From an uncultured Chloroflexia bacterium (GTDB taxonomy: Bacteria; Chloroflexota; Ktedonobacteria; Ktedonobacterales; JADMIN01), in assembly GCA_963718915.1 (NCBI GenBank), contig CAVRAI010000015.1, forward strand, positions 630,001-662,000: a DNA stretch of 32,000 nucleotides, in the 5' to 3' direction. Position 1 is the first letter of the stretch; every line of letters begins with the position of its first letter. The notes under the pieces are model-generated. The model was not told the origin of the DNA, searched no databases, and saw nothing but the letters and a program-made list of their open reading frames with translations. Of this stretch, positions 6,101 through 30,209 are shown one piece after another. A program made the translations under genes and the position numbers.

Positions 6101-6257
6101 CTACGCCAAAGCGCAGGCGCTCTTTGACTGGGCGCTGCTCGCCCCAGATGATGTTGCCAGCCAGGAACGGCTGCGCGAGGCCAGTGCCATCTTTACACGG
6201 CTAGGCGCGAGCGGCGATGCGGTTCGCTCAGAACGCGCACTGAAGTCGCGAAAATAG
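3186..6257 (+). CDS. Large transcriptional regulator: XRE-type HTH + P-loop (AAA/STAND-like) NTPase + TPR-like repeats
   Basis: ATG follows GGTGAGGTGAG. Motifs: HTH LTQEELAERAGLSARAITAIERG, Walker A GEPGVGKT, Walker B LLLDDLHWAD. The C-terminal half is roughly 550 aa of helical repeats. Confidence 0.85.
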   Translation: MTMARDQDTQSDFADLLRRARRDAGLTQEELAERAGLSARAITAIERGISRAPHKTTVELLCAALELPPEQYAVFLAAARKRPGGAALNPTLPPVDDGGSNSNGSGSLAAPLQAVGGFLGALPDRLIVTREAELRQIGDALDATLHGSAKIVFLAGEPGVGKTRLAQEATLVAQAHGYLVVTGRCQEPYQAMPYYPFVEALLAAIMHAAPAIREELPRSWPEVQRLLPGSIQDREASGAYRRAEEQQRLFWSITRFFQALALEQPIALLLDDLHWADDASLSLLQHLAQHTRASRVFILCAYRDTELSRRHPLRRILHDLARERLADRLTVTRLSQGGTAALIATIIAENVGNDVNAPAEPPAALIEAIHRSTDGNPFFTVEVLRALQQRGEMRSADGRWEWRSTQEILVPESVQAAIDERLARLDPGAQELLEEASILGESFVFDDLVALQERDEDEVEMALEAAIGAALVQETGPDSYHFNHVLTQQALYHGVSRRRRRRLHLAAGAALERLPQSQRSGHASELAWHFLQADEPARALPYVIQAGDQAQAIYAYTAAENRYRTAVELARSLQDTAQEAVVQARRGTALAGLARWDEALVALRRAADLDRAAGAYEALAQDVALMARVYNDHGTPETGIEVTRPYLEQLPAQTSAGALARVYTALTYLYLSSGLYHELLAIAERALEFASEASDPRLLAEAQGRRCAALATLGRFDEALPSLHEVVRLAEEADALETQVLALNNIAHSYLLIGPLDSARDTFAGALDLAPRLHSPVLLPLLLVNHAYANFLLGDWQRAHADLNSASQIAQEMGINALSASLPVLRGRLYLAEGRPSDAARVIAEGLALGEPDAQTMYDAQSALAERELLSGRPEAARDRVLPLVEGANPHVPDAVAVLPLLAWAHLEMGEIERATSIVAEAIQLLRAMGMRVMLVNALRIQAMVAQRQGDRGTAETTLAEAVSLADAIGYPYAKAQALFDWALLAPDDVASQERLREASAIFTRLGASGDAVRSERALKSRK

Positions 6258-11166: not shown

Positions 11167-13296
11167 TTAATTGCTGGCGCCGTTGAGCTCGCGCTGCCAG
11201 AGCCAGTCGGTGATACGCTCGATTCCGTTGGCGAGGTGATAGCGATAAGTGTTGAAGGGGAGGCCGAGCAGTTCCGCGGCTCGCTCCTGCGTAGGCGCTG
11301 GTTCGATGTAGGTATGCCAGATGGCGCGGTGAAACTTGATCTCCTTCGGGTTCTCCGCCAGACTGGCCACGGCTTCGAGCATGAGCGCCCGCAACGCTTC
11401 GGGTGAGGGGCCTTGCCGGGCGACATCCGCGACCAACCGTGACTGCATCAGCGGATTCGCCGCCAGCTCGCTCGCGTGGGTATAGTCGCGCAACGCCTGA
11501 CGCACCGCATCGGCAAACTCTGGCTGCGAGAGCACCAGCAGTGACGGCGCAGAAGAGAGGGTTGGTGACTGTGTCGTGAGATTCGGGTCGGCGGCCAGGG
11601 TCGCTTTGACGTTGAGCCAATCCATGGCTGGCTCCACGCGCCAGTCGTGCGTAAAGACACCGAAGCGTTGCCCATCAGTCACAAAGTCGGCCTCCGGTGA
11701 GCGCCAGAAATGGACGGCGGTAAAATGGGGTTCGATGAAATCAGGATCGAAGATGGGGATGAAGTTCCAGGCCAGCTTGGGATGAGTAATAAGGTCGATG
11801 GTTGTATTGATCGCCGCGAGATTAAAAGCTGGCGAGACGCCCTGGAAACCCTCGGTGGTCATCCAGAAACGCGCGTAGAGGATTTCTTCGTCCTGCCGCA
11901 GTGGGCCATGACGCGCAATGAAATCTACCGCCGACCGGATCGCTGGATCCGTCGCGATATCCTCTGGACTGGGCTGCCTCAAGAGGAGATGGGCCAGGAG
12001 GCCGAACACGTCGCCGCCCACATTGCGGAGCATGCGAAACGCCTGCGGCTGGCGCTCGAGCCAGTAAGCCGCGATCTTCGCCGAGGCCTCCCCCTGATGG
12101 CGCGCGATCAACGCCAGGATGGTAGGGTGGTCGTGTGCCGATGCCACCTCGGCGTAGGCGCTGCCCAGCGCCGACCATTCATAGTAGGGGCGGTAGACGG
12201 GGCTATGCCGACACAGGTAGAGCAGGGAGAACCAGATGCGCTGTTGCTCCATGCCATAGGCCTGGACAAATCTGGCGTAGAGGGCGGCAAACAGGCGATG
12301 GGTGAGACGGCGGAAGCTCTCGGGATTGCGCCAGCGCCAGTCGGCATCCAGCACCTCGCGCGCCAGATCGTGGGGGAAGAGGCCAAAGGGGCCGTCTTCA
12401 ATGAAGGGGAGTTGGCGCAGCCACTCGAAGAGCGTATGCGCATCACTAACGCTGGCTCCTTCAAGCATATCGCCTAACAAAGTCTCGGTAGTTGCCCACA
12501 TGCGCACGCAGATATCCAGCGCCAGACGATGATCGGCGCTGGGCACATCCTGCACGAGGCGCTCCAGCAGCACGCGCACCACATCTGGCTCAGGTTCATA
12601 GAGCGACGCGCGCGATGGCAACTTTCCCCCACGGCCCAGCACATCGGCGACGAGCGCCAGCGCCAGGGGATGCCCATGCGTAAAGGCCAGAACGTCAGTA
12701 TGCAGATCATCGGGGATGCCGCGCATTGCCAGATAGGTCTGGCACTCGTCCGGGCGCAGATCGCGGAGCGGTGCGATGCGCGCTAACTCTGCCCAGTCAA
12801 TATCGGTACGCCAGGGTGACGTGGGTGGGTTGCGGCTGGCGATCACCACGAGGCTCTGCGCTGGCAGTTGCGGCAGAAACGTCTCACGCAGCCAGCCATC
12901 GAGCGCGGTCAGGATTTCGTAGCGATCAATCAGGAGCACGCCAGCCGATGGCCAGTGTGCGATAACATGCGCCAGACTCACGTCCTCAAGCTCCAGGCAC
13001 TGGCTCAGGGCAAACAGAAACCCCGATGGCGTTGGGTCGATATTTCGCCCATCCACCTGCACGACGATCTTTTCGCCGGTTGCCGCGCGGCGGGCGTATT
13101 CGTGGAGCAGGGTGGTCTTGCCGATGCCACCGGGGCCATAGACGTAGAGCACAGCAAAAGGCGGCTCGGCTGTCTGGATCGCTGCGCAGAACATCTCAAG
13201 TTCATCTGAGCGTCCGACGAAGCGTCCGCGCCGGGCTGCGACCAGCCGATCAGCAATTCGCGGGGTTTGCGCAGTAGCGTGATTCCTGGTAGCCAT
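11167..13296 (-). CDS. P-loop NTPase regulator with C-terminal HTH
   Basis: ATG at 13296. Motifs: Walker A GPGGIGKTTLL, Walker B-like VLLIDRYE, and a C-terminal HTH ERAAELLGLPFNTYRYHLANGIERITDWL. Confidence 0.75.
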   Translation of the reverse strand: MATRNHATAQTPRIADRLVAARRGRFVGRSDELEMFCAAIQTAEPPFAVLYVYGPGGIGKTTLLHEYARRAATGEKIVVQVDGRNIDPTPSGFLFALSQCLELEDVSLAHVIAHWPSAGVLLIDRYEILTALDGWLRETFLPQLPAQSLVVIASRNPPTSPWRTDIDWAELARIAPLRDLRPDECQTYLAMRGIPDDLHTDVLAFTHGHPLALALVADVLGRGGKLPSRASLYEPEPDVVRVLLERLVQDVPSADHRLALDICVRMWATTETLLGDMLEGASVSDAHTLFEWLRQLPFIEDGPFGLFPHDLAREVLDADWRWRNPESFRRLTHRLFAALYARFVQAYGMEQQRIWFSLLYLCRHSPVYRPYYEWSALGSAYAEVASAHDHPTILALIARHQGEASAKIAAYWLERQPQAFRMLRNVGGDVFGLLAHLLLRQPSPEDIATDPAIRSAVDFIARHGPLRQDEEILYARFWMTTEGFQGVSPAFNLAAINTTIDLITHPKLAWNFIPIFDPDFIEPHFTAVHFWRSPEADFVTDGQRFGVFTHDWRVEPAMDWLNVKATLAADPNLTTQSPTLSSAPSLLVLSQPEFADAVRQALRDYTHASELAANPLMQSRLVADVARQGPSPEALRALMLEAVASLAENPKEIKFHRAIWHTYIEPAPTQERAAELLGLPFNTYRYHLANGIERITDWLWQRELNGASN

Positions 13297-13334
13297 TGTC
13301 TCATGCTCTCTGAATGACGCCTGGCATGGAATGG

Positions 13335-13343
13335 AGTATAGCA
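13335..13343 (-). promoter_or_regulatory. Extended -10 promoter element (TGcTATACT) for the P-loop/HTH regulator
   Basis: The minus strand reads gTGCTATACTcc. This is about 40 nt upstream of ATG 13296. No good -35 is present, which is consistent with the extended -10 class. Confidence 0.35.
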
Positions 13344-13385
13344 CACGCCAGACTTCGTGGCGGGCCGCTGCCGATCCATAATTTG

Positions 13386-15784: not shown

Positions 15785-15959
15785 AGCACCACCTCACACG
15801 TCCAAGCGACCCAACAGCACCTACTATCTAGCATCTTGTATAGCATCTCGCATAAAACGGCCCACAGCGCGAAAGACTTCCCTTGCTCATCATACCCGAT
15901 GCTTACCCTGTCAGGGTAGTGAGCGGAGATAGTTCGGCCATCGGCATGTGTCGAGGGAG

Positions 15960-17174
15960 CTACGAGAGAGCGGGGCAGTTTGCTGGCGGCGTGAAGGCAA
16001 GGGGTGGCATGGGCAGTTGTCCATAGGGGCTGACGCTCTCCATCAGCCGGAGCAGCGCCACATACTGCGGTTTGGCGGCGCCGTTTTTGGCGACATCCAC
16101 CATATCATCGGTTCCGTAGCCGCCGACATTCGCGAGGTCGAACTGGTTGGCGAATGAGGCGCCCGCGCGGGCCATGCTCTTCAGCGCGGTGACGCTATAT
16201 TGCGCGATCCAGCAGGCATCTTTTGTGTAGTCTGGCATCGGCGCCGATGGGTCGGCGTTCCACTCGGTCACGCCGATGGGGATACGCGCGCCCGCAGCGC
16301 CGAAGTACTGTGTCAGCCACCCGCGCACCATCGTCACCTGATCGCCGTAGCTATCCGCCTTCGCCATGCACGAGTCAGCGCTTTCCTGCCAGCAGGGATA
16401 CCAGTGAAAGGTTACGAAGTCCGGCACTACCTTACTCAGCGCCATCCCTTGCAGCGCCTTTTGCATGTAGCAGACGGTACTGTCGAACGTGTAGGTACAC
16501 TGGCTATACTGCGGCGTGGTGGCGGCTGGCCCGCCGAAAAGCGCATGAGGGTCAATCGCGCGCAGCCTGGGGATCTCGCTCGCCCACTGTGAGATGTAGG
16601 TCGCAACCAGAACCTGCTCGTTATCCGGCTCATTCATGAATTCGTAGGACGAGCACTTGCCCTTGAAGAGCGTCACCATATGCTCGTCGTAGGCCATGCT
16701 GTTCCCGCTCGGCAGCTCACAAAGCAATTGCGCGCCGGTGTTGAGCGCCGCCTGCACCTTGCTTTGCTGATAGGCGTCTGTCACCGGCTGGCTCGTGACG
16801 AGGTCAGTCTGGAAGAGCCAGGTGCGGATCAACGCCAGATGGTCGGCCTTCACCTGCTTCTGGATCGCCGGTATAGTGATGAGATTCTTCTCGGCGTCCC
16901 AGTTCTGTGTGTCATTGGTGCCCCAGAGCATCGAGGGGATGCCATGCCAGAGGGTCTCGCCGGGCAGCAGTGGTGGCGGTGTCTTCGGCGCCCAGTTGGC
17001 GGGCGGGCCAGCGTTTTCACCGCCGATGAGTCGGGACACTGCTGCGGTTCCACCGCCGATGGCGACCAGCACGAGCGCCACCATCAACGCGGCAACGATG
17101 GGCTGCGTTCGCACCCAGTTGGTCAGCCGCCTCTTCGGAGACGTCTTCTGAGGCATTGTCTGAGCAGCCGTCAT
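15960..17174 (-). CDS. Membrane-anchored/secreted glycoside hydrolase, clan GH-A TIM barrel (family not assignable by eye)
   Basis: ATG 17174 follows GGAGGAGAGGGG. Signal-anchor IVAALMVALVLVAIGGGTAAV. Acid/base-type motif EFMNEPD and nucleophile-type motif GVTEWN. Confidence 0.6.
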   Translation of the reverse strand: MTAAQTMPQKTSPKRRLTNWVRTQPIVAALMVALVLVAIGGGTAAVSRLIGGENAGPPANWAPKTPPPLLPGETLWHGIPSMLWGTNDTQNWDAEKNLITIPAIQKQVKADHLALIRTWLFQTDLVTSQPVTDAYQQSKVQAALNTGAQLLCELPSGNSMAYDEHMVTLFKGKCSSYEFMNEPDNEQVLVATYISQWASEIPRLRAIDPHALFGGPAATTPQYSQCTYTFDSTVCYMQKALQGMALSKVVPDFVTFHWYPCWQESADSCMAKADSYGDQVTMVRGWLTQYFGAAGARIPIGVTEWNADPSAPMPDYTKDACWIAQYSVTALKSMARAGASFANQFDLANVGGYGTDDMVDVAKNGAAKPQYVALLRLMESVSPYGQLPMPPLAFTPPANCPALS

Positions 17175-17615
17175 GTCTTTGCCCCTCTCCTCCACCCCCA
17201 TGTCACACAGCTACGCGACGACGCTGCGCTTCCCAGCTTGTCGGCAACATACCCCCAACCATGTCCCGTCGGCAACAAACGAGGTGTGTAGCGACAGGCG
17301 ACAGGGTAACACCTGCATCGAGAGTGACATGAGTGAGTGTGTACATTGCACATTTGGACGATGCAAGCGCCGCGATGACCGTCAACAATGTTGTTCCTAC
17401 TGGAATTTTGAGTCTCGCAACACGCTAAATGCCGTCTCGATGATACGGAGGGATCTGCACAGGACGAACCTTGTTTGTTTATCTGTGTCCAGGGCACTCC
17501 AATTTGCAATATTGCATGCTTCGTGACAAAGTAGAGGGTATAGTATAGTGAAGCAATCGACAAAAGAACCAAAGGCGAGTATAGGTGTTATCCGAAAGTA
17601 GATAGGGGGACTAAA

Positions 17616-18740
17616 GTGTCCAAGCTTGTTATCTTCGGAAGTGCAGTTGTTGATTTGACCTTCACTGTACGGACATCCCTTCCGAAAGAAGGCGAATCAA
17701 TACCTGGCAAGTTTGAGGCATCCCCAGGTGGAAAAGGGCTCTATCAAGCGGTTGCGTGTGCTCGCCTGTCGTCGAAGTTGTCTTCAACGACATTCATAAG
17801 TTCCATTGGAAATGACCAGTTTGGAGCCCAAGTTCGCGATATTCTCACGATGGAGCATATTCACGAATGCATAGCAAATCAGGATCTTGGTGACAGAGAG
17901 ACAAGTGTAACCGATGTTGTGTGCATGCTGGTAACTCCTGGGAAGACTACTTCATACATAGGGTGTCGGAATGCAACAGATCGATTATCCGCTGACTTTG
18001 TCAGATCCGAGGCTGCAGCTGTGATTCAGGCCGCAGATGTTGTTCTCGTGACATTTGATGCTGCGGTGGAGGCAACGAAGGAGGTCATTTCACTTGCACG
18101 TGCTGCAGGTAAGCCAACCGTCATCAACGCCTCTCCACCTCATGAGAAGATGCCTTTGTCAGTTGTGCAAGGCGCAGACTTTGTGGTTGCGACTCATAAA
18201 GAGGCATGGGAGTGGCTACGCTTGCAAGGACATCTTCAAGCCGACGAATTGGAGAGCAAGGCGGAAGAATCAGTTGCCCGTAAGATCCTGGCGTCGGGCG
18301 CAAAGACCGTAATTCTAACGTTGGACGATAATGGCTGTATAGTGGTTGACTCATTAGGTTCCCGACATTATGAAGCATATACCGGCGGAACACCTATGGG
18401 TGGAACTGGAGCGAGGTCGGCATTCTGCGCAGGCCTTGCTGTTGCTTTGGTGGACCCCTTTGAAGTCGAGTGGGCATTGGCCGACTCAACTCCAGAGTCC
18501 AATCGGATCGCGACCGCATCAGCGGCTCGCTACTTCGCAACTCAAAAGGCAGGCAATATCCAGGCTATGCCTTATCGGGTGGATTTGGAGCGATTCTTCG
18601 AGCGGTGGCCGCCACTGAAGCTGATTTCTCCAAGCGCGGCACAAACGATAACAACCGACAAAGGTTCCGCGCAACCTAATAAGCAGCCAGACTTAAAAGT
18701 GCTAGGCAGCAAGCAGCCTCCAAAAGAACGGACATCCTAG
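17616..18740 (+). CDS. PfkB/ribokinase-fold protein with degenerate catalytic motifs and a low-complexity C-terminal tail
   Basis: GTG follows AGGGGGA. It aligns to E. coli ribokinase: VIFGSAVVDL, LPKEGESIPG..ASPGGKGLYQAVA (GG motif kept). NxxE reads THKE, and signature-2 G-A-G-D reads G-A-R-S (GGTGARSAFCAGLA). Confidence 0.8.
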   Translation: MSKLVIFGSAVVDLTFTVRTSLPKEGESIPGKFEASPGGKGLYQAVACARLSSKLSSTTFISSIGNDQFGAQVRDILTMEHIHECIANQDLGDRETSVTDVVCMLVTPGKTTSYIGCRNATDRLSADFVRSEAAAVIQAADVVLVTFDAAVEATKEVISLARAAGKPTVINASPPHEKMPLSVVQGADFVVATHKEAWEWLRLQGHLQADELESKAEESVARKILASGAKTVILTLDDNGCIVVDSLGSRHYEAYTGGTPMGGTGARSAFCAGLAVALVDPFEVEWALADSTPESNRIATASAARYFATQKAGNIQAMPYRVDLERFFERWPPLKLISPSAAQTITTDKGSAQPNKQPDLKVLGSKQPPKERTS

Positions 18741-18803
18741 CGCCTGGCTAATGCTCAACGTTCCGACCAGATATCTTCTCTGCCAGTATCAGGCGATTTC
18801 GTC

Positions 18804-18830
18804 TTTTTTGGGCATCGTAAGCCCAAAAAG
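18804..18830. other. Stable hairpin between the PfkB-like and Gmk-like genes
   Basis: TTTTTGGGC (18805-18813) - atcgtaa - GCCCAAAAA (18821-18829), about 65 nt after the PfkB-like stop. It is not followed by a U-tract. Confidence 0.4.
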
Positions 18831-18930
18831 TGGCGTGCCGATATACGACAAGTGAATGTTGAAGTCCCCTGATCTTCGTACCATCCCTGAGGCCAGGTAA
18901 TATGGGGAAACTAGAGGAGGGAGTACTCGA

Positions 18931-19593
18931 TTGGCCAAACGAAAGGGGGCGCTCCTGATAGTCAGTGGGCCATCAGGGGTAGGGAAGAACACCCTAGTGA
19001 ATCGCATCTTGCAGGTCGAGAAGAATGTACATCAGATGCCAACAGTCACCACTCGCGCTCCGCGTAATAGCGAGAAAGAAGGTCGGGAACACTTCTTCGT
19101 TACCGAAGCGGTGTTCGATGCCCATGTGCGAGATCAAGCGTTTCTTGAATGGGAGTGGATTCATGGTAATCGCTATGGCACTCTTCGCTCAACAGTAGAT
19201 AGCCTGTTAGCTGCTGGAAAGATTTGCATAGCAGATGTAGATGTCAAGGGAGCGTTGAATCTCAAACAAGAACATCCATTTGGAGTCATAGTTGTTTTCG
19301 TGCTACCTCCGTCGCCTGATGTCCTGCGCAAGCGCATATTGATGCGAGGGCCAGTGTCAAATGAGGAACTTGCAATGAGAATCGACCGAGCTGCCATAGA
19401 AATCGCCCAGGCTGGAAAGTGCGACTATCAACTTGTCAATGACGACCTTGATGCCGCTGTGGCCGCTCTCCTGGGAATTGTTCGGAAACTGAGGGGTAAA
19501 GGCGCTCGGTTCGGGCCATTGCAAGTACGATTCAAGCAACAAAAGCAAGTGCTGGCATCGCGGCGATTAGATTTACGGTCCAATAAGTCATGA
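18931..19593 (+). CDS. gmk: Guanylate kinase family protein (island-borne copy)
   Basis: TTG start follows GGAGGGAG. Motifs: P-loop SGPSGVGKNT, TTRAPRNSEKEGREHFFV, FLEWEWIHGNRYGT, and a Gmk-like lid/C-terminus. It is collinear with E. coli Gmk as I recall it. Confidence 0.8.
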   Translation: MAKRKGALLIVSGPSGVGKNTLVNRILQVEKNVHQMPTVTTRAPRNSEKEGREHFFVTEAVFDAHVRDQAFLEWEWIHGNRYGTLRSTVDSLLAAGKICIADVDVKGALNLKQEHPFGVIVVFVLPPSPDVLRKRILMRGPVSNEELAMRIDRAAIEIAQAGKCDYQLVNDDLDAAVAALLGIVRKLRGKGARFGPLQVRFKQQKQVLASRRLDLRSNKS

Positions 19594-19701
19594 CTAATTA
19601 CCAAGCGAGAATACTCCCCACACATTTGCTACGCGGGTGAACGCATCAACGTCACGCACATGGACTTATCTATCGTAGCATCTTTAGATCTGAGGTAGTT
19701 A

Positions 19702-20295
19702 ATGAGACGAATTTGTATTTTTGCTGGCAGCAGGAGGGGGATAGACCCTGATTTTCTGCACGCTACTACTCAACTTGCCCGCGCTATCGTTGCCCGGGGA
19801 TGGGGCATTGTCTACGGTGGAGCATCCGTGGGGCTCATGGGAGCACTTGCAGATGCCGCGCTCGCTGCTGGCGGCGAAGTCATTGGAGTCACGCCAAGGA
19901 GTGTCTTCTCTTCCGAGTTGCCTCATTCTGGATTGACAAAATTATATGTAGTTGCGAGCATGCATAGACGTAAGGCGCTCATGGCTGATCTTTCAGACGC
20001 GTTTATTGCCTTGCCAGGCGGGTTTGGAACATTCGATGAACTATTCGAAGTAGTTACATGGGCGCAGTTAGGAATTCACTCCAAGCCCATCGGAATCCTT
20101 GATACATGCGGATACTTCGACCCATTATTAGACCTAATCAAGCATGCAGCACGCTGTGGATTTATCAACCCGGAACACATGTCCTTGATTGAAGCTGATG
20201 CTAAAGTCGATCAACTCCTCGACTCGCTCGCAAGCCGGGCGTCGACAATGAGAAAGAAGGTTAGACCATCAGTGAGCAGCCAACTTAAGCAATAA
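19702..20295 (+). CDS. LOG-family protein (nucleoside 5'-monophosphate phosphoribohydrolase; TIGR00730-type)
   Basis: ATG follows GAGG. Motifs: ICIFAGS, VYGGASVGLMG, and the canonical PGGFGTFDELFE. Confidence 0.85.
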   Translation: MRRICIFAGSRRGIDPDFLHATTQLARAIVARGWGIVYGGASVGLMGALADAALAAGGEVIGVTPRSVFSSELPHSGLTKLYVVASMHRRKALMADLSDAFIALPGGFGTFDELFEVVTWAQLGIHSKPIGILDTCGYFDPLLDLIKHAARCGFINPEHMSLIEADAKVDQLLDSLASRASTMRKKVRPSVSSQLKQ

Positions 20296-20366
20296 CAGTC
20301 GTTGGAAGCTACTTCATCATGCCTATCGTCTGGTCGTTTCTTCCAGAGCCGGAGAAAGGATGCACC

Positions 20367-20738
20367 ATGGATGTCCATCGAGCGATAGAATCTAGATTGC
20401 TGGATTTTCAAGTAGCAGGCGTCTTTCAGTTCGCGCTGTCGCTAGAGCGTGGTAATCATGGGGAGGCAGCCCTCGTTCTGCACAGTACTGCATGCACTGT
20501 CGGATGCAGAGCTGCAGAAGCCAAGGAGTATTTACGACAGTTTGGATTGATTGAACCCAATAGATTTTGCCCCTATTTCTACAGTGGTTGCCAGTATAAG
20601 ATCTTGAGATCGACGGAGAAATATTTTCCAGGTTTCGAATTGCACAGCGATCCTTGGAGCGGCGGTGCGCTGAAGGCAATAGCGGAAGGTTTCGATGCCG
20701 ATTTCAGCGAAGTGCGCGCTCATCAAAACGGTTCTTGA
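20367..20738 (+). CDS. Hypothetical 123-aa protein
   Basis: ATG 20367 is 6 nt after GGAGAAAGGA; the track's start at 20319 lacks an RBS. I recognise no motif. There are five Cys, and a possible HTH-like stretch GEAALVLHSTACTVGCRAAEAKEYLRQFGLIE. Confidence 0.5.
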   Translation: MDVHRAIESRLLDFQVAGVFQFALSLERGNHGEAALVLHSTACTVGCRAAEAKEYLRQFGLIEPNRFCPYFYSGCQYKILRSTEKYFPGFELHSDPWSGGALKAIAEGFDADFSEVRAHQNGS

Positions 20739-20863
20739 TCTCGACGAATTGCGTCAGCCTGCCTCATGGGACGCCCTGCCGTGAGGGTTCAACTGTTATG
20801 AGTGTGTCGAATTTGGCATCTGATGGTACAGGAGATATGGAGAATCACAGGAGGAGTCAGACG

Positions 20864-22891
20864 ATGACGAAAGTGAGCAAGAAAACTGTTAAGGTCTTTT
20901 GCAGCTACTCCCATCGAGATGAGTTACTTCGCGAGACACTCGACAAGCACCTTGCATTTCTCCAAAGGAATGGGACGATTAGCAACTGGAATGATCGAAA
21001 AATTGACGCTGGCGTCAAATGGGAAACCGAGATCAGTGCTCATCTGGAGTCAGCAGATATAGTATTGATGCTCGTAAGCGCCGATTTTATGGCCTCAGAT
21101 TATTGTTACGGAATTGAGATGCAACGGGCGCTTCAACGATTTGACGAGGGATCTGCCCGGGTTATTCCGATAATCCTACGGCCAGTTGACTGGCAAGCCG
21201 CGCCTTTTGCAAAGCTACAGGTGCTCCCACGGGATGCAAAGCCTGTGACTGGGTGGGACGATCCAGAAGAGGCATGGGCGAGTATTGCCACTACAATCCG
21301 CCTTTTGTGTGAAGAGATAGTCGCCGAGGCTGATGTACGGCATATTGATACTACAGAGCGGACTGTGCAACTGACACAGCACGGAGGGATGAGCTATCAA
21401 TTACACGAAGTTTTCGTCAAATCTGGTATGCCAGATATAACCCTGGTAGAGAGGGATGAGTTTGACTCACTCAAGATTGCTATCGCTACACCTGGACGTG
21501 GCGTAGTAATAGAGGGGCCATCAGGAGTTGGCAAGACGACTGCTGTTCGGCAGGCGCTAGCAGAAGCTGGCCAAAGCGGCCACCAATATAGCCAGGTTGG
21601 TGAGCATATTTTGACCGCGAAAAGTCCAGACGACGTAAAATCCCTGTCCCACATCGAGAAGTGGCATACTGGCGCAGTTGTAATCGACGACTTCCATTGC
21701 CTTAATGCACCTCTCCAACTTGAGTTGGTGAATTACCTCAAGCGGCTAGCTGATCAGCAGCCACGTGACAAGAAACTCATACTCATAGGTATTCCTGGTA
21801 CAGGACAACGGCTCGTAGATATATCTCATGATGTAGCAACCCGCATTGACTTGTTTCGTTTCGGCAAAGTCAGTGATCAACTGGTGTTAAGCCTCATACG
21901 CAAGGGAGAAGATGCGCTAAATGTTGAGTTTGATCGGAAGGTTGAGATTGCAATGGCGTCTTCAGGAAGCCTAAATATTGCTCAGTACCTTGGTTTCGAA
22001 ATTTGTGAGAGGGAGCATATACTTCAAACGGCTCCTACCCGTCGCTATATCAGAACAGACCTGGGTTCCGCCGTATCAAGAGTAGTTCGGGATTTGTCGT
22101 CAAAATTCCACGGCCCCATCCGCCAGTTTGCCGCACTTGGCCCACGTACTGACACAACGTGCCTCGAACTGCTCAAAGAATTACCCCATACTCATGACGG
22201 ATTCTTGCCTCTCTTGACGTTGTCTGACAGACGACCTTCCTTGGCGATCGGTATTAGCTCTTTTGTCGATGGGAATTGGATGCAATCCTTATATTCCAGG
22301 CATCCGGAAGTCGCTGATTTCATTTATTTCGATGAAAGTGCTGTGGCGCTTGTTGCAGAGGATCCTCAGCTTACCTTTTATCTAAGCAATGCTAACTTTG
22401 CTCAATTAGAGAACGAAGCAGGCAAGTATATACCCCAAATTCGTAAACGTCTCACCTTTGTGTATAGTCATGTGGATGCGGAATGGCTTGAAAAAATTAG
22501 AATCCATCTTAAGCCCGCTGTTAACGATGCGGATCTTGAGTTGTGGAGTGATACGCGCGTTCAAACGACAGCCAAATGGGCAGACGAGCTTCAGCGTGTA
22601 TTCGACGTTTCCGCCGCAGTCATAATTCTGGTAAGTGCCGATTTTCTGGCGTCGGAGTTTGCTTTACAGCAAAGACTCTATAGCCTTCTTACAATCGCTC
22701 ATGCCAATGGGACAACCATCATTCCATTGATTGTCTCACCTTGTCTATACCGTGGAAGTAGTTTGAGAGGGTATTTGCCGCACGGCTCGCCAGACAGGCC
22801 TTTGACAGCAATGAGGGATTGGGAGCAGGGCAAGACTCTGTTATCACTTACAGAAGCTATTTTAAAACTGGTAAAGCAGGAAAGCAAATGA
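20864..22891 (+). CDS. TIR domain - P-loop NTPase - second (degenerate) TIR-like domain protein
   Basis: ATG 20864 is 7 nt after AGGAGGAG; alternative starts are 20798 and 20837. TIR1: KVFCSYSHRDE ... VSADFMASDYCYGIEMQRAL ... VIPIILRPVDW. Walker A GPSGVGKT (21515-21538) and Walker B VVIDDF (21677-21691). TIR2: LTFVYSHVDAEW ... VSADFLASEFALQQRL ... IIPLIVSPC. Confidence 0.85.
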   Translation: MTKVSKKTVKVFCSYSHRDELLRETLDKHLAFLQRNGTISNWNDRKIDAGVKWETEISAHLESADIVLMLVSADFMASDYCYGIEMQRALQRFDEGSARVIPIILRPVDWQAAPFAKLQVLPRDAKPVTGWDDPEEAWASIATTIRLLCEEIVAEADVRHIDTTERTVQLTQHGGMSYQLHEVFVKSGMPDITLVERDEFDSLKIAIATPGRGVVIEGPSGVGKTTAVRQALAEAGQSGHQYSQVGEHILTAKSPDDVKSLSHIEKWHTGAVVIDDFHCLNAPLQLELVNYLKRLADQQPRDKKLILIGIPGTGQRLVDISHDVATRIDLFRFGKVSDQLVLSLIRKGEDALNVEFDRKVEIAMASSGSLNIAQYLGFEICEREHILQTAPTRRYIRTDLGSAVSRVVRDLSSKFHGPIRQFAALGPRTDTTCLELLKELPHTHDGFLPLLTLSDRRPSLAIGISSFVDGNWMQSLYSRHPEVADFIYFDESAVALVAEDPQLTFYLSNANFAQLENEAGKYIPQIRKRLTFVYSHVDAEWLEKIRIHLKPAVNDADLELWSDTRVQTTAKWADELQRVFDVSAAVIILVSADFLASEFALQQRLYSLLTIAHANGTTIIPLIVSPCLYRGSSLRGYLPHGSPDRPLTAMRDWEQGKTLLSLTEAILKLVKQESK

Positions 22892-23219
22892 TCGGAAAAT
22901 GGACCTGCTGCAAGAAGGATGTCCAATGAACGTACAAGTTTGACCCATCTGATCTGACATGCGGGTGTTATGCCAGTGCAACGAGAAATTGACTGCTGTT
23001 CGAGGTCATCGCAAAGGGATCATACTGATTTCGGGTGAGTTGTTGTGGTTCAGGCGCCCACCGTAGCCTGAAGGCCACGGCGAATTTCCTCGGACGCAGC
23101 CTCGTCCACCCATTCGCTGTAGCGTTTACGCTACGGCTTGCCTGCCCTCGAAACCAACAACAACGCAGACAGATTTCGTATCACAGGCTTTTCAGTGCGC
23201 GAGCTATACTCAATCGTTG

Positions 23220-23294
23220 TGGTGCCCCCAGGGCGACTCGAACGCCCGCCCCCGGCTCCGGAGGCCGGTGCTCTATCCACTGAGCTATGGGGGC
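23220..23294 (-). tRNA. tRNA-Arg (anticodon CCG), CCA encoded
   Basis: Minus strand, 75 nt: GCCCCCA-TA-GCTC-AGTGGATA-GAGC-A-CCGGC-CTCCGGA-GCCGG-GGGC-GGGCG-TTCGAGT-CGCCC-TGGGGGC-A-CCA. All four stems are fully paired, and the T-loop is TTCGAGT. Confidence 0.9.
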
Positions 23295-27862: not shown

Positions 27863-28336
27863 ATGCCTGATAAGTATATGCGAGAAATCGAAGAGATCCT
27901 GCGCAACCTCGAGGGTACTGAGTCTCAGCAGGACCTCGGGGAACGCATCCGCCCGTTCAAACGCCCCGCAACGCGCCGTCCGCGTGGCCCTCGCGTCTCG
28001 TGGATCCCTCGCCTTGAATTACCAGTCACCCTGATGCTGGTGGGCATTGCGCTGGCGCTCGTGGGCGCTGGGCTGGCCTTTTACCAACTCGAAGCAACGC
28101 TGGTCAGTGGTCTTATTGGACTCGGCGGCTTCCTGCTCTTTGTAGCGGGCGTCGCGTTTGGCTGGTGGGCGCGGTTTCGCGGCGTGAGTGTTCCCACGCG
28201 CCGTGTGCGTCGTTCGCCCAGCTCCGATAATGTGGTACGGATCAGGCCCGTTCGCTCGAACCCACTCTCCCGGCTGACCACCAGTCTCCGCATGCGCCAG
28301 ATGCGGCGACGCTACCGCAACACCACCGACCGCTGA
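27863..28336 (+). CDS. Hypothetical membrane protein (two adjacent TM helices, basic tail)
   Basis: ATG 27863 is 6 nt after GGGAGG. MPDKYMREIEEILRNLEG ... LMLVGIALALVGAGLAFY / LIGLGGFLLFVAGVAFGWW. Confidence 0.5.
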   Translation: MPDKYMREIEEILRNLEGTESQQDLGERIRPFKRPATRRPRGPRVSWIPRLELPVTLMLVGIALALVGAGLAFYQLEATLVSGLIGLGGFLLFVAGVAFGWWARFRGVSVPTRRVRRSPSSDNVVRIRPVRSNPLSRLTTSLRMRQMRRRYRNTTDR

Positions 28337-28431
28337 TCTGTCTCCTCTCGTTTGATGTGCATTGAGTATCGTGATGCCACTCGGGTAGAACCAGGATACG
28401 CGGTTGACTTGTTTTTGGTGAGGAGTAGCAA

Positions 28432-28854
28432 GTGCATTGGGACTTCGGCTGGACAATCTTCTTTGGCATCGCCGCAGCTGTTGTACTGGTCTTCTGGGGT
28501 CGTCAGTTAGTGCTTAGCATACTGGCGATCTATCGCGCTCAACGATATGGCGATCCGAGTGAGCCCAGAAAATACCAAATCGGGAAGCGCCTGGTGTCCA
28601 TAGCCACGGCAAACGCTATGTTATCAGTGTTCCTTGTAGATTCGCTGTCTCTCCTGTTTCTAGAAGTTTTGGCAGTGCCTATTCCTCCCTGGTTTTGGAT
28701 AGTTACCATCATATTGATCTGCCTCACATCTGTTTCGTTTTGCGTTGGTTTTGCATTCATACTCCCCGGTGAAATCGCAAATATGCGCCGCGAGGCACGA
28801 GAAGCGCGTGAGAGTGGTGAAGGTTTCTGGATCGGCCGTCACAGCGATAGTTGA
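28432..28854 (+). CDS. Hypothetical membrane protein (about 4 TM), lower G+C
   Basis: GTG start follows GGTGAGGAG. Hydrophobic segments: TIFFGIAAAVVLVFW, LVSIATANAMLSVFLV, FWIVTIILICLTSVSFCVGFAFIL. Confidence 0.5.
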   Translation: MHWDFGWTIFFGIAAAVVLVFWGRQLVLSILAIYRAQRYGDPSEPRKYQIGKRLVSIATANAMLSVFLVDSLSLLFLEVLAVPIPPWFWIVTIILICLTSVSFCVGFAFILPGEIANMRREAREARESGEGFWIGRHSDS

Positions 28855-29101
28855 TCCCAGCTTCGCCATATGTATTGTCAAAGATTGGAAGGCATACCCC
28901 TTCATAGCCAATGTACACGGGCTACACGAGCCGTTGTTGCAGGCCTGGTGGAATGGCCGCTGGTAGCCATGCGCCAGCGATGAAGTTTGATGAGATGCGA
29001 AGTGACGCCGGGCGGAATCGGAGCAACCCCATCAATGCGCAATCCTTGTCGGCGGTATAGACCAACCCCCACTCATGTGTAGAGCGGGGATTGGCGGCAT
29101 C

Positions 29102-29845
29102 TCAAAGACACTCGGGATCATTTGCGTTGGGGATAAACATCCCGTTCGTTTGGCGCGGACGCCTCGCCTGCGTCAAGCGGTAGCCCGCGCCATCACTGTC
29201 GTCGGCAAGTGTTTCTTGCCAGCGAGCGCGATGAATCGCCAATCGCGCCACGTCATGATACTGGCAGCCCGCACGTCGTTCTTCTCTGAGTATTCCCTCT
29301 ATCCGAAAGCCCCAGTTAGATGCAAGTTGAATCGTGCCCCTTTGCTCAAGCAGCGGCTCGGCAAAGACTTTGTGCATTCCAAGCCAGCCGAAGAGGAAGT
29401 CGAGAAAGAGAATGCCTGCCTCTGCGCCCGCGCCATAGCATCGCGCTTCAGGGATGACATAGACATGCATACGGCAGCGTTGGTGCGTGGTTGACAACTG
29501 ATCACCGTAGGCCCAGCCGATCATCCGGCCAGAGTGCAACCCTTCAACAATCATGTGTGGCTCGCCTGCTGCAAGTGAGCCATGCAACTGCCGGGCGAAC
29601 GTCTTGAGACCCTCGACTCGGGAATCCTCGCGCCACAGCGAGACTTCGTGTGTATCTGTTGCCCAGACGTGCAGTTGTACCTTGTCACCTTGTTCGAGTG
29701 GGCGTAGGCGCACATGCGCGCCTTGAAGTTCAGGGAGCGTGTTCGAGGTGGAGTCGCTGGATCCGCATCTTCCGGATAACTGATTGTTCCATTGCCAGAT
29801 ATGCTGGCTGTGCCAGCGTTCATTTTCGCCCTCATCTGCCACCAT
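29102..29845 (-). CDS. GNAT-family acetyltransferase (RimJ/RimL-like)
   Basis: VRLRPLEQGD ... IGWAYG ... MHVYVIPEARCYGAGAEA ... LGMHKVFAEPLLEQRGTIQLASNWGFRIEGILRE. The start is uncertain; ATG 29845 is chosen. The upstream 95 codons of the track ORF do not look protein-like. Confidence 0.6.
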   Translation of the reverse strand: MVADEGENERWHSQHIWQWNNQLSGRCGSSDSTSNTLPELQGAHVRLRPLEQGDKVQLHVWATDTHEVSLWREDSRVEGLKTFARQLHGSLAAGEPHMIVEGLHSGRMIGWAYGDQLSTTHQRCRMHVYVIPEARCYGAGAEAGILFLDFLFGWLGMHKVFAEPLLEQRGTIQLASNWGFRIEGILREERRAGCQYHDVARLAIHRARWQETLADDSDGAGYRLTQARRPRQTNGMFIPNANDPECL

Positions 29846-30209
29846 GTTACTACCCTTGCCGTTCTCGTGAGCTGCGCCGCACATAAAAGAGCGCGCGCCT
29901 GTCCAGATGTCGTGATCCGCGGATGTCCGGGCATTCCCTGCCCTCATGCTCAGGATACCGACAGACGGAGTGCATTCCAGGTTCGACAGCGCCATTTCGC
30001 GAGGAAAAGCGGCAAATGTACTATGAAAAGCAGCAAATTCCCCAGCGCTGACGAGAAACGGTATCACGCTTGATTTCCGAGCTGTTTGTATGCCAAAAAT
30101 ACAGTGGCACAAGCTTTCAAAAAGAGGCAATTCTGGCGTCCGGGCATTTTCTCGCTATGCTCTAGCCGCACGCTGTTCTCCATCCGTAGCAGGACTGGTA
30201 AGGCGAATA

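What the first reader, a model, noticed from the sequence alone, without database searches (positions are those of the whole stretch)
17616..22891. Five-gene low-GC cassette linking a TIR-NTPase-TIR protein to PfkB-like, guanylate-kinase-like and LOG proteins: candidate undescribed nucleotide-centred defence system
Seen: five co-directional ORFs (17616-18740, 18931-19593, 19702-20295, 20367-20738, 20864-22891) each have their own Shine-Dalgarno. They fill a block whose composition and codon choice differ sharply from both flanks and which ends near a tRNA gene. Motifs give a ribokinase fold, guanylate kinase, LOG, an unknown protein, and TIR - Walker A/B NTPase - TIR. Established: bacterial TIR domains are NAD+-cleaving immune enzymes that deplete NAD+ or produce ADP-ribose-derived signals (Thoeris ThsB). 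The Thoeris effector ThsA reads that signal through a SLOG domain, the superfamily that includes LOG. LOG enzymes cleave the N-glycosidic bond of nucleoside 5'-monophosphates, and nucleotide-pool depletion is a known abortive-infection strategy. Inference: this gene combination does not correspond to any named system I know (Thoeris, CBASS, Pycsar, Avs/TIR-NLR, nucleotide-depletion enzymes). Two readings are plausible. (a) The TIR-NTPase senses infection and makes or consumes a nucleotide, with LOG as a purine-nucleotide-destroying effector and the kinase folds binding or modifying the signal. (b) The three enzymes build or activate a modified nucleoside or nucleotide (nucleoside to NMP to NDP logic) downstream of the TIR product.
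Basis: partly seen in the sequence, partly recalled or inferred. Interest (0 to 1): 0.85.

Follow-up and report, generated by a model that had tools for sequence, protein, structure and literature searches.

The report
TIR defence gene with kinase-like partners
A foreign, low-GC gene cassette joins a TIR "cell-suicide" immune protein to a ribokinase-like protein that has lost its catalytic residue and to a guanylate kinase; this three-gene combination recurs in other bacteria and matches no named anti-phage system, while the LOG gene and the small unknown gene are local add-ons.

Summary
In detail: five co-directional ORFs with Shine-Dalgarno motifs, the stated domains, a 5.9-kb low-GC block (0.47-0.53 against 0.60-0.66), and tRNA-Arg at its right edge.

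The conserved unit has three genes, not five. PfkB-like, Gmk and TIR-NTPase-TIR recur at 54-58% identity as a low-GC block in an unrelated neighbourhood (L001), without LOG or orf4.

The PfkB-like protein belongs to a very rare ribokinase-derived clade, about 7 clusters among 1.84 billion representatives. In it the catalytic G-A-G-D is replaced, by G-A-R-S in all members with known context. In all five lineages with context it sits just upstream of a true NMP kinase (Gmk or Cmk). In three lineages a TIR protein follows, with two different architectures. Other slots hold nucleotide-catabolic enzymes: LOG, dCTP deaminase, or an HD nucleotidase.

The TIR-NTPase-TIR family usually travels alone, often on Tn3-type transposons. 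Only the two kinase-linked members have Arg at the Glu position of the second TIR.

PADLOC and the literature searches found no named system. My best reading is a TIR/STAND abortive-infection gene with a new nucleotide-sensing accessory pair, similar in logic to Kongming. The mechanism is inferred.

The parts
17300..23219 (.). Low-GC island that holds the cassette
   Evidence: GC 0.47-0.53 against 0.60-0.66 in the flanks. Against strain L007, divergence is about 10% left of about 17,300 and about 0% right of it, and L007 ends at 23,219, next to the tRNA. No integrase or att repeat was found.
17616..18740 (+). PfkB-like protein derived from ribokinase, with a remodelled active site (374 aa). 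R267-S268 (nt 18414-18419) replace the G-D of the GAGD motif.
   Evidence: Pfam PfkB 1.9e-27. AF2 model pLDDT 89; Foldseek gives true ribokinases, target-normalised TM 0.80-0.91. GARS, loss of the NxxE Asn, and GGKGL[YF] are invariant in the five lineages with context. The clade is about 7 clusters among 1.84e9 representatives.
18931..19593 (+). Guanylate kinase (220 aa, TTG start), apparently catalytically intact
   Evidence: TIGR03263 176.5 bits, above the 160.45 cutoff. 54% identical to the Gmk in the L001 cassette. P-loop GPSGVGKN and the TTRxPR, E/Y/T and lid Arg motifs are visible in the sequence.
19702..20295 (+). Type-I LOG (nucleotide 5'-monophosphate phosphoribohydrolase), an accessory specific to this lineage
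   Evidence: TIGR00730 192 bits and PF03641 2e-42. 201 bits to PDB 5zbj and 187 to YvdD. PGGFGTFDE motif present. Absent from L001; present in L007.
20367..20738 (+). orf4, an orphan ORF (123 aa), doubtful as a gene and specific to this lineage
   Evidence: No Pfam, NCBIfam, PADLOC, PHROG or PDB match. Best of six frames but with a weak codon score. Frameshifted in L007. Absent from L001.
20864..22891 (+). TIR - STAND/ORC-like P-loop NTPase - TIR protein (675 aa). Approximate domains: TIR1 nt 20888-21313 (E85 = 21116-21118); NTPase 21461-21868 (K224 = 21533-21535; Walker B DD 275-276); helical and winged-helix region 21869-22423; TIR2 22442-22888 (R604 = 22673-22675, at the Glu position).
   Evidence: TIR_2 twice; PADLOC ThsB1 6.3e-63 and PDC-S59 1.4e-12. 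AF2 pLDDT 86; Foldseek top hits are RPP1 TNL 4.5e-10, Cdc6/Orc1, Avs4 and Avs5. Across 50 family members: TIR1 Glu 47/50, Walker A Lys 50/50, TIR2 Glu 45/50, and Arg only in the window and P0002.
23220..23294 (-). tRNA-Arg(CCG) at the right border of the island
   Evidence: ARAGORN; Rfam tRNA 68.4 bits.

Best explanation
This is a horizontally acquired anti-phage cassette with a three-gene core.

(1) The TIR-NTPase-TIR protein is a self-contained sensor and effector of the TIR-STAND (NLR-like) kind. The P-loop NTPase acts as a nucleotide-dependent switch and oligomeriser. The N-terminal TIR, with its catalytic Glu85, is the NAD+-cleaving abortive-infection effector.

(2) In this sublineage it is coupled to a conserved two-gene nucleotide module. 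One gene is a ribokinase-derived protein that keeps the fold and part of the ribose pocket (D13, GG, K40, D148) but has lost the catalytic base (GAGD to GARS). The other is a true NMP kinase, here Gmk.

I propose that the PfkB-like protein no longer works as a sugar kinase. Instead it acts as a receptor for a ribose-containing ligand, and the NMP kinase makes or consumes that ligand. This would tie TIR activation, or its restraint, to the state of the (d)NMP and nucleoside pool, which phage infection disturbs. The Glu-to-Arg change in the second TIR of exactly the two kinase-linked proteins fits a TIR2 converted from catalysis to binding or regulation.

LOG here, dCTP deaminase and an HD 5'-deoxynucleotidase in sister cassettes, are swappable nucleotide-catabolic add-ons. 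orf4 is probably not essential.

Shown: gene content, conservation, linkage, motif states and folds. Inferred: the defence role, NADase activity, the sensor role of the PfkB-like protein, and any ligand.
For: Conserved three-gene block at 58/54/55% identity in a different neighbourhood, low GC in both genomes.

The PfkB-like clade is next to an NMP kinase in 5 of 5 lineages with context, with 4-nt overlap coupling in L196. A TIR protein lies immediately downstream in 3 of 5, with two unrelated architectures (TIR-NTPase-TIR and TIR-beta-helix). The cassette is again low in GC in L009/L010.

PfkB-like and NMP-kinase identities co-vary between loci: 72/68, 60/54, 44/49, 40/54.

The active-site remodelling is invariant down to 34-35% identity, while a sister tier keeps GASD and the Asn. 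The fold is that of a ribokinase.

The NMP kinases pass NCBI equivalog cutoffs and keep their catalytic motifs.

TIR1 Glu is near-invariant; TIR2 Glu is 45/50, with Arg only in the two kinase-linked members.

Both TIR partner types hit PADLOC defence-candidate models: ThsB, PDC-S59, PDC-S66. Family relatives ride Tn3/integrase elements and swap their N-terminal effector modules (PNP, SIR2-like, caspase, CHAT), which is typical of defence genes.

There is a precedent for a housekeeping enzyme that lost its catalytic Asp, kept its binding pocket and became a nucleotide-signal sensor paired with an NADase, with nucleotide kinases making the signal: Kongming KomB.
Against: Only five lineages have context, and all come from metagenomes. 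In two of them (L008, L196) no TIR is visible; a conserved TPR protein lies upstream but is cut by the contig end.

The TIR-NTPase-TIR family is autonomous almost everywhere: none of about 85 other contexts has the kinases.

The NMP kinases look fully canonical and could simply be metabolic.

Loss of the Asp does not prove loss of kinase activity. From my own knowledge, ThiD and ThiM in the same superfamily use Cys at that position.

In strain L007 the TIR gene and orf4 carry frameshifting indels while PfkB-like, Gmk and LOG are intact. So the enzymes may be maintained without a working TIR gene, or that part of the contig may be assembly noise.

There is no experimental evidence and no protein-interaction prediction.
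Confidence: 0.4

Rival explanations
1. Two independent systems sit side by side. The TIR-NTPase-TIR gene is a complete single-gene defence. The PfkB-like plus NMP-kinase pair, with LOG, DCD or HD, is a separate nucleotide-pool-manipulating defence or salvage module. The two co-travel only because defence genes cluster in islands.
For: The TIR family is autonomous in about 85 other contexts and is often lone Tn3 cargo. In L196 and L008 the pair occurs with DCD or HD and no visible TIR. In L007 the enzymes are intact while the TIR gene is broken. Nucleotide depletion by dCTP deaminases or dGTPases is a known stand-alone defence (my own knowledge).
Against: The same order and orientation, with a TIR immediately downstream, occurs in three lineages with two unrelated TIR architectures. 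All three proteins have diverged to a similar degree between the window and L001. The TIR2 Glu-to-Arg change is found only in the kinase-linked members. The island in L001 holds just these three genes.
Confidence: 0.28
2. One reading: the PfkB-like protein is still an active kinase with altered chemistry, for example acting on an anionic or phosphorylated substrate. With the NMP kinase it phosphorylates a nucleoside-like or ADP-ribose-derived TIR product stepwise into an active signal or toxic nucleotide.
For: The pairing of a PfkB-family protein with an NMP kinase has nucleoside to NMP to NDP logic, and the partner switches between Gmk and Cmk. A conserved Arg-Ser rather than random decay suggests selected function at the site. 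T235, G240 and E196 on the ATP side are retained. From my own knowledge, viperin-type systems use neighbouring nucleotide kinases; the weak PADLOC 'pVip-kinase' hit covers only the P-loop.
Against: The catalytic base and the NxxE Asn are lost. The NMP kinases look like canonical GMP/CMP kinases rather than enzymes for an exotic substrate. In L196 and L008 there is no TIR to supply a product.
Confidence: 0.15
3. The first reader's reading (a), with all five genes as one unit: the TIR-NTPase senses infection and LOG is the purine-nucleotide-destroying effector, analogous to ThsA/SLOG in Thoeris.
For: LOG belongs to the SLOG superfamily (PF18306 1.1e-12). Some family relatives carry a fused PNP nucleoside-phosphorylase domain, which is a comparable N-glycosidase effector. 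The sister-cassette slots hold DCD or HD.
Against: LOG and orf4 are missing from the closest cassette, L001. The LOG protein is an ordinary stand-alone type-I LOG with no effector fusion. There is no ThsA hit in PADLOC. orf4 is an orphan and is frameshifted in L007.
Confidence: 0.07
4. This is not immunity at all. It is a mobile nucleoside/nucleotide salvage islet (ribokinase-like, Gmk, LOG) that happens to lie next to a TIR gene.
For: Gmk and LOG look like normal enzymes. L196 has RNR, DCD and an ordinary PfkB gene nearby.
Against: A ribokinase without its catalytic Asp is a poor salvage enzyme. The clade is extremely rare and mobile. It neighbours TIR repeatedly. It forms low-GC islands in three different hosts.
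Confidence: 0.08

Closest known systems
Bacterial TIR-STAND / TIR-NLR single-gene systems (Avs-like; nSTAND 'NTP-dependent conflict systems' of Kaur, Burroughs, Iyer and Aravind)
   Same: An N-terminal TIR with a catalytic Glu, a central P-loop NTPase with lid and winged helix, structural matches to RPP1, Cdc6/Orc1, Avs4 and Avs5, swapping of the N-terminal effector among relatives, and carriage on mobile elements.
   Different: The C-terminal sensor position holds a second TIR domain instead of TPR, WD40 or LRR repeats. Pfam nSTAND models score below their cutoffs (21.9 against 34). This sublineage has a conserved PfkB-like plus Gmk operon partner that I did not find described for these systems.
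Thoeris (ThsB TIR plus ThsA with a SLOG or Macro sensor)
   Same: A ThsB-like TIR (PADLOC ThsB1 6.3e-63) and a SLOG-superfamily protein (LOG) in the same operon.
   Different: There is no ThsA. The LOG is a catalytic housekeeping-type LOG without a SIR2, TM or Macro effector, and it is absent from the sister cassette. The TIR is embedded in an NTPase protein.
Kongming (KomA adenosine deaminase, KomB dead HAM1, KomC SIR2; Zeng et al., bioRxiv 10.1101/2024.12.20.629578)
   Same: The logic is shared. A housekeeping nucleotide enzyme with its catalytic Asp replaced but its pocket kept acts as a signal sensor. It is paired with an NADase effector. Nucleotide kinase activity is needed to make the signal. 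Nucleotide-metabolic accessories are swappable.
   Different: No component is homologous: PfkB, Gmk and TIR here against HAM1, deaminase and SIR2 there. Here the kinase is encoded by the cassette rather than borrowed from the phage. The ligand is unknown.
Nucleotide-depletion defences (dCTP deaminase/AvcD, dGTPase)
   Same: A nucleotide-catabolic enzyme is linked to a kinase-like module. The sister cassette L196 carries a dCTP deaminase directly after the Cmk gene.
   Different: The DCD is dUTPase-fold and a separate gene. The window has LOG instead. No PADLOC hit.
Ribokinase RbsK (PfkB family)
   Same: Fold (target-normalised TM up to 0.91), the GG/K motif, D16, and the E of NxxE.
   Different: GAGD becomes GARS, so the catalytic base is lost. 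N14, N46 and N187 are replaced. A C-terminal extension of 40-60 aa is present.

Membership tests
Thoeris | ThsB-type TIR protein | tested here: met
   PADLOC ThsB1 6.3e-63, matching both TIR domains. TIR1 Glu85 is present. However, the TIR is part of a 675-aa NTPase protein.
Thoeris | ThsA effector: a SLOG or Macro sensor fused to SIR2, TM or another effector | tested here: not met
   No ThsA model hit. The only SLOG-superfamily protein is a 197-aa canonical LOG (TIGR00730 192 bits; 5zbj 201 bits) with no effector domain. It is absent in L001.
Thoeris | TIR-made ADPR-derived signal activates the effector | not testable with these tools
   Needs biochemistry and LC-MS.
STAND / NLR-like NTPase (Avs, TIR-NLR, nSTAND) | P-loop NTPase with Walker A and Walker B | tested here: met
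   GPSGVGKT with Lys in 50/50 members; hhhhDD with Asp in 49/50.
STAND / NLR-like NTPase (Avs, TIR-NLR, nSTAND) | NTPase followed by helical lid and winged helix, with overall similarity to NOD modules | tested here: inconclusive
   Foldseek top hits are RPP1 (4.5e-10), Cdc6/Orc1, RFC, Avs4 and EfAvs5, but TM scores are low for the multidomain chain. Pfam nSTAND_NTPase5 and nSTAND3 score below their cutoffs.
STAND / NLR-like NTPase (Avs, TIR-NLR, nSTAND) | C-terminal repeat-type or dedicated sensor domain | tested here: not met
   The C-terminus is a second TIR domain, residues about 527-675.
PfkB ribokinase (active kinase) | Ribokinase fold with the GG/K sugar-binding motif | tested here: met
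   pLDDT 89; target-normalised TM 0.80-0.91 to ribokinases. G38, G39, K40 and D13 are invariant.
PfkB ribokinase (active kinase) | GAGD anion hole with the catalytic Asp | tested here: not met
   G-A-R-S in the five lineages with context, and GARS, GERS or GAQS in four further clusters. The sister tier keeps the Asp.
PfkB ribokinase (active kinase) | NxxE motif | tested here: not met
   The Asn is replaced by Thr or Pro; the Glu (E196) is kept.
Guanylate kinase | Equivalog-level match and catalytic motifs | tested here: met
   TIGR03263 176.5 bits against a 160.45 cutoff; the L001 partner scores 188.5. The P-loop and GMP-binding motifs are present in the sequence.
LOG (type I) | PGGxGTxxE and GGGxGxM motifs with a family-level match | tested here: met
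   PGGFGTFDE and GGASVGLMG are visible in the translation. TIGR00730 192 bits against 96.
Kongming | Homologues of KomA (adenosine deaminase), KomB (HAM1) and KomC (SIR2) | tested here: not met
   No such Pfam domains in any of the five proteins. The resemblance is in logic only.

The most novel reading that the evidence does not exclude
The GARS-type PfkB-like protein and its NMP-kinase partner are the conserved core of an undescribed family of nucleotide-sensing immune cassettes. A dead ribokinase would read a ribose-containing metabolite or signal whose level is set by the partner kinase. That information would be passed to interchangeable effectors: TIR-STAND-TIR, TIR-beta-helix, dCTP deaminase, HD nucleotidase or LOG. 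This would be a second, independent case, after Kongming's dead HAM1, of a housekeeping nucleotide enzyme recruited as an immune receptor.
Probability: 0.25. Interest if true: 0.85.

Novelty: new variant of a known kind. Interest (0 to 1): 0.62.

Why it matters
TIR enzymes are central to immunity in bacteria, plants and animals, but how their activity is wired to cellular metabolism is poorly understood. If the linkage is functional, this cassette is a compact three-gene test case in which a TIR/STAND effector is coupled to a ribokinase-derived pseudo-enzyme and a true NMP kinase. It would extend the recent idea, shown by Kongming, that inactivated housekeeping nucleotide enzymes serve as immune sensors and that ordinary nucleotide kinases take part in immune signalling. 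It also points to specific residues to test: PfkB-like R267/S268, TIR1 E85, Walker A K224 and TIR2 R604. The caveat is rarity. Only about seven sequence clusters are known, all from metagenomes, so general importance is uncertain.

Tried and rejected
(1) Integrase or att evidence for the island: no repeat of the tRNA 3' end and no recombinase gene.

(2) Scans of genome contigs and metagenome contigs with PfkB-like clade patterns: 93 and 110 pattern matches, no true relatives. The invariant TGARSAFCA signature as a DNA pattern gave 101 stretches in metagenome contigs, all chance matches by tblastn.

(3) Phage origin of the PfkB-like module: no relatives in viral contigs. Phage and plasmid records hold only ordinary ribokinases below 30% identity.

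(4) A riboswitch or other RNA element in the 315-nt leader or the intergenic gaps: only the tRNA was found. Promoter and terminator motifs are not enriched.

(5) A named system: PADLOC matched only the TIR/NTPase protein, apart from one weak PsyrA hit for LOG (4.5e-05). Seven literature searches found no PfkB-family plus NMP-kinase plus TIR system. The 'pfkB' of the KKP system is an unrelated gene name.

(6) orf4 identity: nothing in Pfam, NCBIfam, PADLOC, PHROGs or PDB sequences.

They are metagenomic singletons on contigs of 1.9-6.8 kb.

(9) The 'PfkB-like = nucleoside kinase' idea was set aside: its nearest sequences and folds are true ribokinases, not adenosine or nucleoside kinases.

Full report
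OBSERVATION. Each is preceded by a Shine-Dalgarno-like motif. Profile searches confirm the motif-based calls:
- PfkB: 1.9e-27.
- Guanylate kinase: Pfam 2.2e-36, and NCBIfam TIGR03263 at 176.5 bits, above the equivalog cutoff of 160.45.
- LOG: PF03641 2e-42, and TIGR00730 at 192 bits.
- A 123-aa ORF with no family.
- A 675-aa protein with a TIR_2 domain at each end and a P-loop between them. PADLOC scores it as ThsB-like at 6.3e-63.

GC falls to 0.47-0.53 between about 17.3 and 23.0 kb, against 0.60-0.66 on both sides. A tRNA-Arg(CCG) gene at 23220-23294 on the minus strand has its 3' end facing the block. No integrase and no att-like repeat were found.

A near-identical metagenomic contig, L007, is collinear with window 15942-23219. 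The two sequences differ by about 10% up to position 17,299 and are almost identical after it. This places the left edge of the island where the GC drops, and L007 ends exactly at the tRNA. The flanks are ordinary chromosomal genes: PlsY, a GT2 glycosyltransferase, an ABC transporter and a DsbD-like gene. The only weak element is orf4. It is an orphan, its codon score is low (0.04 against 0.12-0.18 for the other genes), and it is frameshifted in L007.

WHICH GENES BELONG TOGETHER. The TIR-NTPase-TIR protein belongs to a large family, with 440 hits. Most members are about 670 aa with the same TIR-NTPase-TIR layout. In some relatives the N-terminal module is replaced or extended by PNP, SIR2-like, caspase, CHAT, DUF4062, a protein kinase or an HTH domain. 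The closest relative, P0002 (55% identity), lies on a 542-kb contig (L001) directly downstream of a PfkB gene and a guanylate-kinase gene. There is no LOG and no orf4. These two partner proteins are 58% and 54% identical to the window's. The three-gene block in L001 is again a low-GC island (0.48-0.53 against 0.64-0.70), and its neighbours are entirely different. So the conserved, mobile unit is PfkB-like, Gmk and TIR-NTPase-TIR. LOG and orf4 are insertions specific to the window and L007.

The rest of the TIR family does not carry this module:
- P0005, P0008 and P0015 are lone cargo next to a Tn3-type transposase and a tyrosine recombinase.
- P0025 stands alone.
- P0047 is followed only by another TIR protein.
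- None of 80 genomic loci has a PfkB-like, Gmk, Cmk, LOG or orf4 relative within 10 kb. These loci come from Ktedonobacteria, Thermogemmatispora, cyanobacteria, actinomycetes and others. The one ordinary ribokinase, in L186, lies 8.5 kb away.

THE PfkB-LIKE PROTEIN IS THE UNUSUAL COMPONENT. Its homologues fall off sharply: 99% (L007), 58% (L001), 40% and 35%, and then ordinary ribokinases at 29% or less. A profile search added P0183. Alignments show three changes shared by all five lineages with known context:
- G-A-R-S replaces the ribokinase G-A-G-D, which forms the anion hole and supplies the catalytic base.
- Thr or Pro replaces the Asn of NxxE.
- Tyr or Phe replaces the Asn of GGKGxN.

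D13, G38, G39, K40, D148 and E196 are kept. A confident AlphaFold model (pLDDT 89, pTM 0.89) matches true ribokinases with target-normalised TM scores of 0.80-0.91. The protein is therefore derived from a ribokinase. It keeps part of the ribose pocket, now more hydrophobic and aromatic, and it lacks the catalytic Asp.

An exhaustive HMMER search of 1.84 billion representatives found only about seven clusters of this Asp-less type, carrying GARS, GERS or GAQS. A sister tier keeps GASD and the Asn. The clade is absent from 185,579 species genomes, from the JGI metagenome collection searched, and from viral contigs, phage records and plasmid records. All members are metagenomic.

CONTEXT OF THAT CLADE. 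In every lineage with context, the PfkB-like gene is followed directly by an NMP-kinase gene. It is Gmk in the window, L007 and L001. It is a (d)CMP kinase in L008, L196 and L009-L014, where the scores of 164-177 bits exceed the TIGR00017 cutoff of 135.55 and the catalytic motifs are kept. In L196 the two genes overlap by 4 nt. PfkB-like and kinase identities co-vary between loci: 72/68, 60/54, 44/49 and 40/54.

The third position varies between loci:
- TIR-NTPase-TIR in the window and L001.
- A 380-aa TIR-beta-helix protein with its Glu intact in L009-L014. It hits PADLOC PDC-S66 and ThsB, and the cassette is again low in GC next to flanking genes at 0.64-0.68.
- A dCTP deaminase in L196.
- An HD/YfbR-like 5'-deoxynucleotidase on the opposite strand in L008.

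L008 and L196 also share a TPR protein immediately upstream (65% identity). Its N-terminus is lost at the contig ends. The theme is therefore a remodelled ribokinase, plus a true NMP kinase, plus a TIR protein and/or a nucleotide-catabolic enzyme. LOG in the window fits that last category.

THE TIR PROTEIN. The model (pLDDT 86) shows a TIR, a linker helix, a P-loop alpha/beta domain, a helical and winged-helix-like region, and a second TIR. The best structural matches are the plant TIR-NLR RPP1 (4.5e-10), Cdc6/Orc1-type AAA+ proteins, RFC, Avs4 and Avs5. Across 50 family members the Walker A Lys is invariant, the Walker B Asp is present in 49 of 50, and the TIR1 Glu in 47 of 50. The Glu of the second TIR is present in 45 of 50. 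The only two proteins with Arg at that position are the window's and P0002, which are exactly the two linked to PfkB-like and Gmk.

HOW IT MOST LIKELY WORKS (inference). The family's autonomy, its mobility, its effector swapping and its PADLOC candidate hits (PDC-S59) mark the TIR-NTPase-TIR gene as a self-contained defence gene of the NLR-like kind. TIR1 would be the NAD+-cleaving effector and the NTPase the switch. In this sublineage it has acquired a conserved two-gene nucleotide module.

The closest documented logic is Kongming. There, a defensive clade of the housekeeping enzyme HAM1 has its catalytic Asp invariably replaced but keeps its substrate pocket. That protein senses a nucleotide signal and partners with a SIR2 NADase. 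Nucleotide kinases are needed to make the signal, and nucleotide-metabolic accessories vary between loci.

By analogy, I propose that the PfkB-like protein is a receptor for a ribose-containing ligand, and that Gmk or Cmk sets the level of that ligand. This would link TIR activity to a nucleotide pool that infection disturbs. TIR2 with Arg may have moved from catalysis to binding. I rate this at about 0.4.

The main rival (0.28) is that the kinase pair and the TIR gene are separate systems that merely co-travel. Three things support it: the autonomy of the TIR family, the L196 and L008 cassettes without a visible TIR, and the intact enzymes next to a frameshifted TIR gene in L007. From my own knowledge, ThiD and ThiM in the same superfamily lack the Asp.

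COMPARISON WITH KNOWN SYSTEMS AND NOVELTY. This is not Thoeris: there is no ThsA. It resembles TIR-STAND/NLR-like genes but has a TIR where the sensor repeats normally sit. It is not Kongming by homology. PADLOC does not recognise the accessory genes. Seven full-text searches found no paper linking a PfkB-family protein and an NMP kinase with TIR defence. I classify it as a new variant of a known kind: TIR/STAND abortive infection with a new accessory module. There is about a 25% chance that the kinase pair defines a new family of nucleotide-sensing immune cassettes. Interest is moderate to high (0.62). The linkage is real and undescribed, and it makes specific residues testable. But it is rare, known only from metagenomes, and its mechanism is unproven.

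Noticed in passing
window 15942-23219 compared with L007 (ENA ERZ25039457 contig_68081): Divergence is mosaic: about 10% in the left flank (15942-17299) and about 0% across PfkB-like, Gmk and LOG. Substitutions and 1-5-nt indels cluster only in orf4 and the N-terminal two-thirds of the TIR gene (20350-21860), which breaks both ORFs in L007. Either the TIR gene is decaying in that strain or this is local assembly noise.
   Followed up: partly
L003:636-6909; L004:100-4991; L200:181-4303: Stand-alone TIR-NTPase-TIR genes sit directly beside a Tn3-family transposase (DUF4158/DDE_Tnp_Tn3) and a tyrosine recombinase. This suggests the family spreads as transposon cargo.
   Followed up: partly
Protein hits P0018, P0021, P0035, P0053, P0062, P0069-P0075, P0077-P0090, P0095, P0100: Relatives replace or extend the N-terminal TIR with PNP nucleoside phosphorylase, caspase, SIR2-like (PF13289), CHAT, DUF4062 or Ser/Thr kinase domains, while keeping the NTPase and the C-terminal TIR. 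So the C-terminal TIR is the constant part of the family.
   Followed up: no
L120:3420-3947: A 42%-identical homologue of the L008 HD/YfbR-like 5'-deoxynucleotidase lies about 6 kb upstream of a DUF4062-NTPase-TIR gene in a Pseudonocardiaceae MAG. This is a possible second link between this HD enzyme and the TIR family.
   Followed up: no
L201:771-4361: The family member P0047, which has Ala at the TIR2 Glu position, is followed 64 nt downstream by a second, 504-aa TIR_2 protein.
   Followed up: no
window 3186-6257 (+) and 11167-13344 (-): The same window holds two further STAND-type NTPase genes: an HTH-AAA_16-TPR(MalT-like) protein of 1023 aa, and a 725-aa AAA_16/NACHT-like protein.
   Followed up: no
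window 28000-31000: A second, milder dip in GC (0.54-0.58) contains a GNAT-domain ORF (29102-30130, minus strand) and several short ORFs. It may be another acquired segment.
   Followed up: no
L010:498-1190 (also in L009 and L011-L014): A conserved 230-aa protein lies immediately upstream of the PfkB-like gene in the Cmk/TIR-beta-helix cassette. It has an N-terminal hydrophobic segment that looks like a transmembrane helix (by eye, not tested) and a weak PA-IL-like lectin match (2.4e-4). It could be a fourth component of that cassette type.
   Followed up: no
P0211: A member of the Asp-retaining (GASD) sister tier of the PfkB-like clade is 567 aa long, with a C-terminal extension of about 230 aa that was not identified.
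   Followed up: no
window 15960-17201 (-): A 413-aa ORF bordering the island has no Pfam family. It is about 10% diverged, with indels, between the window and L007, where only a 223-aa gene is called.
   Followed up: no
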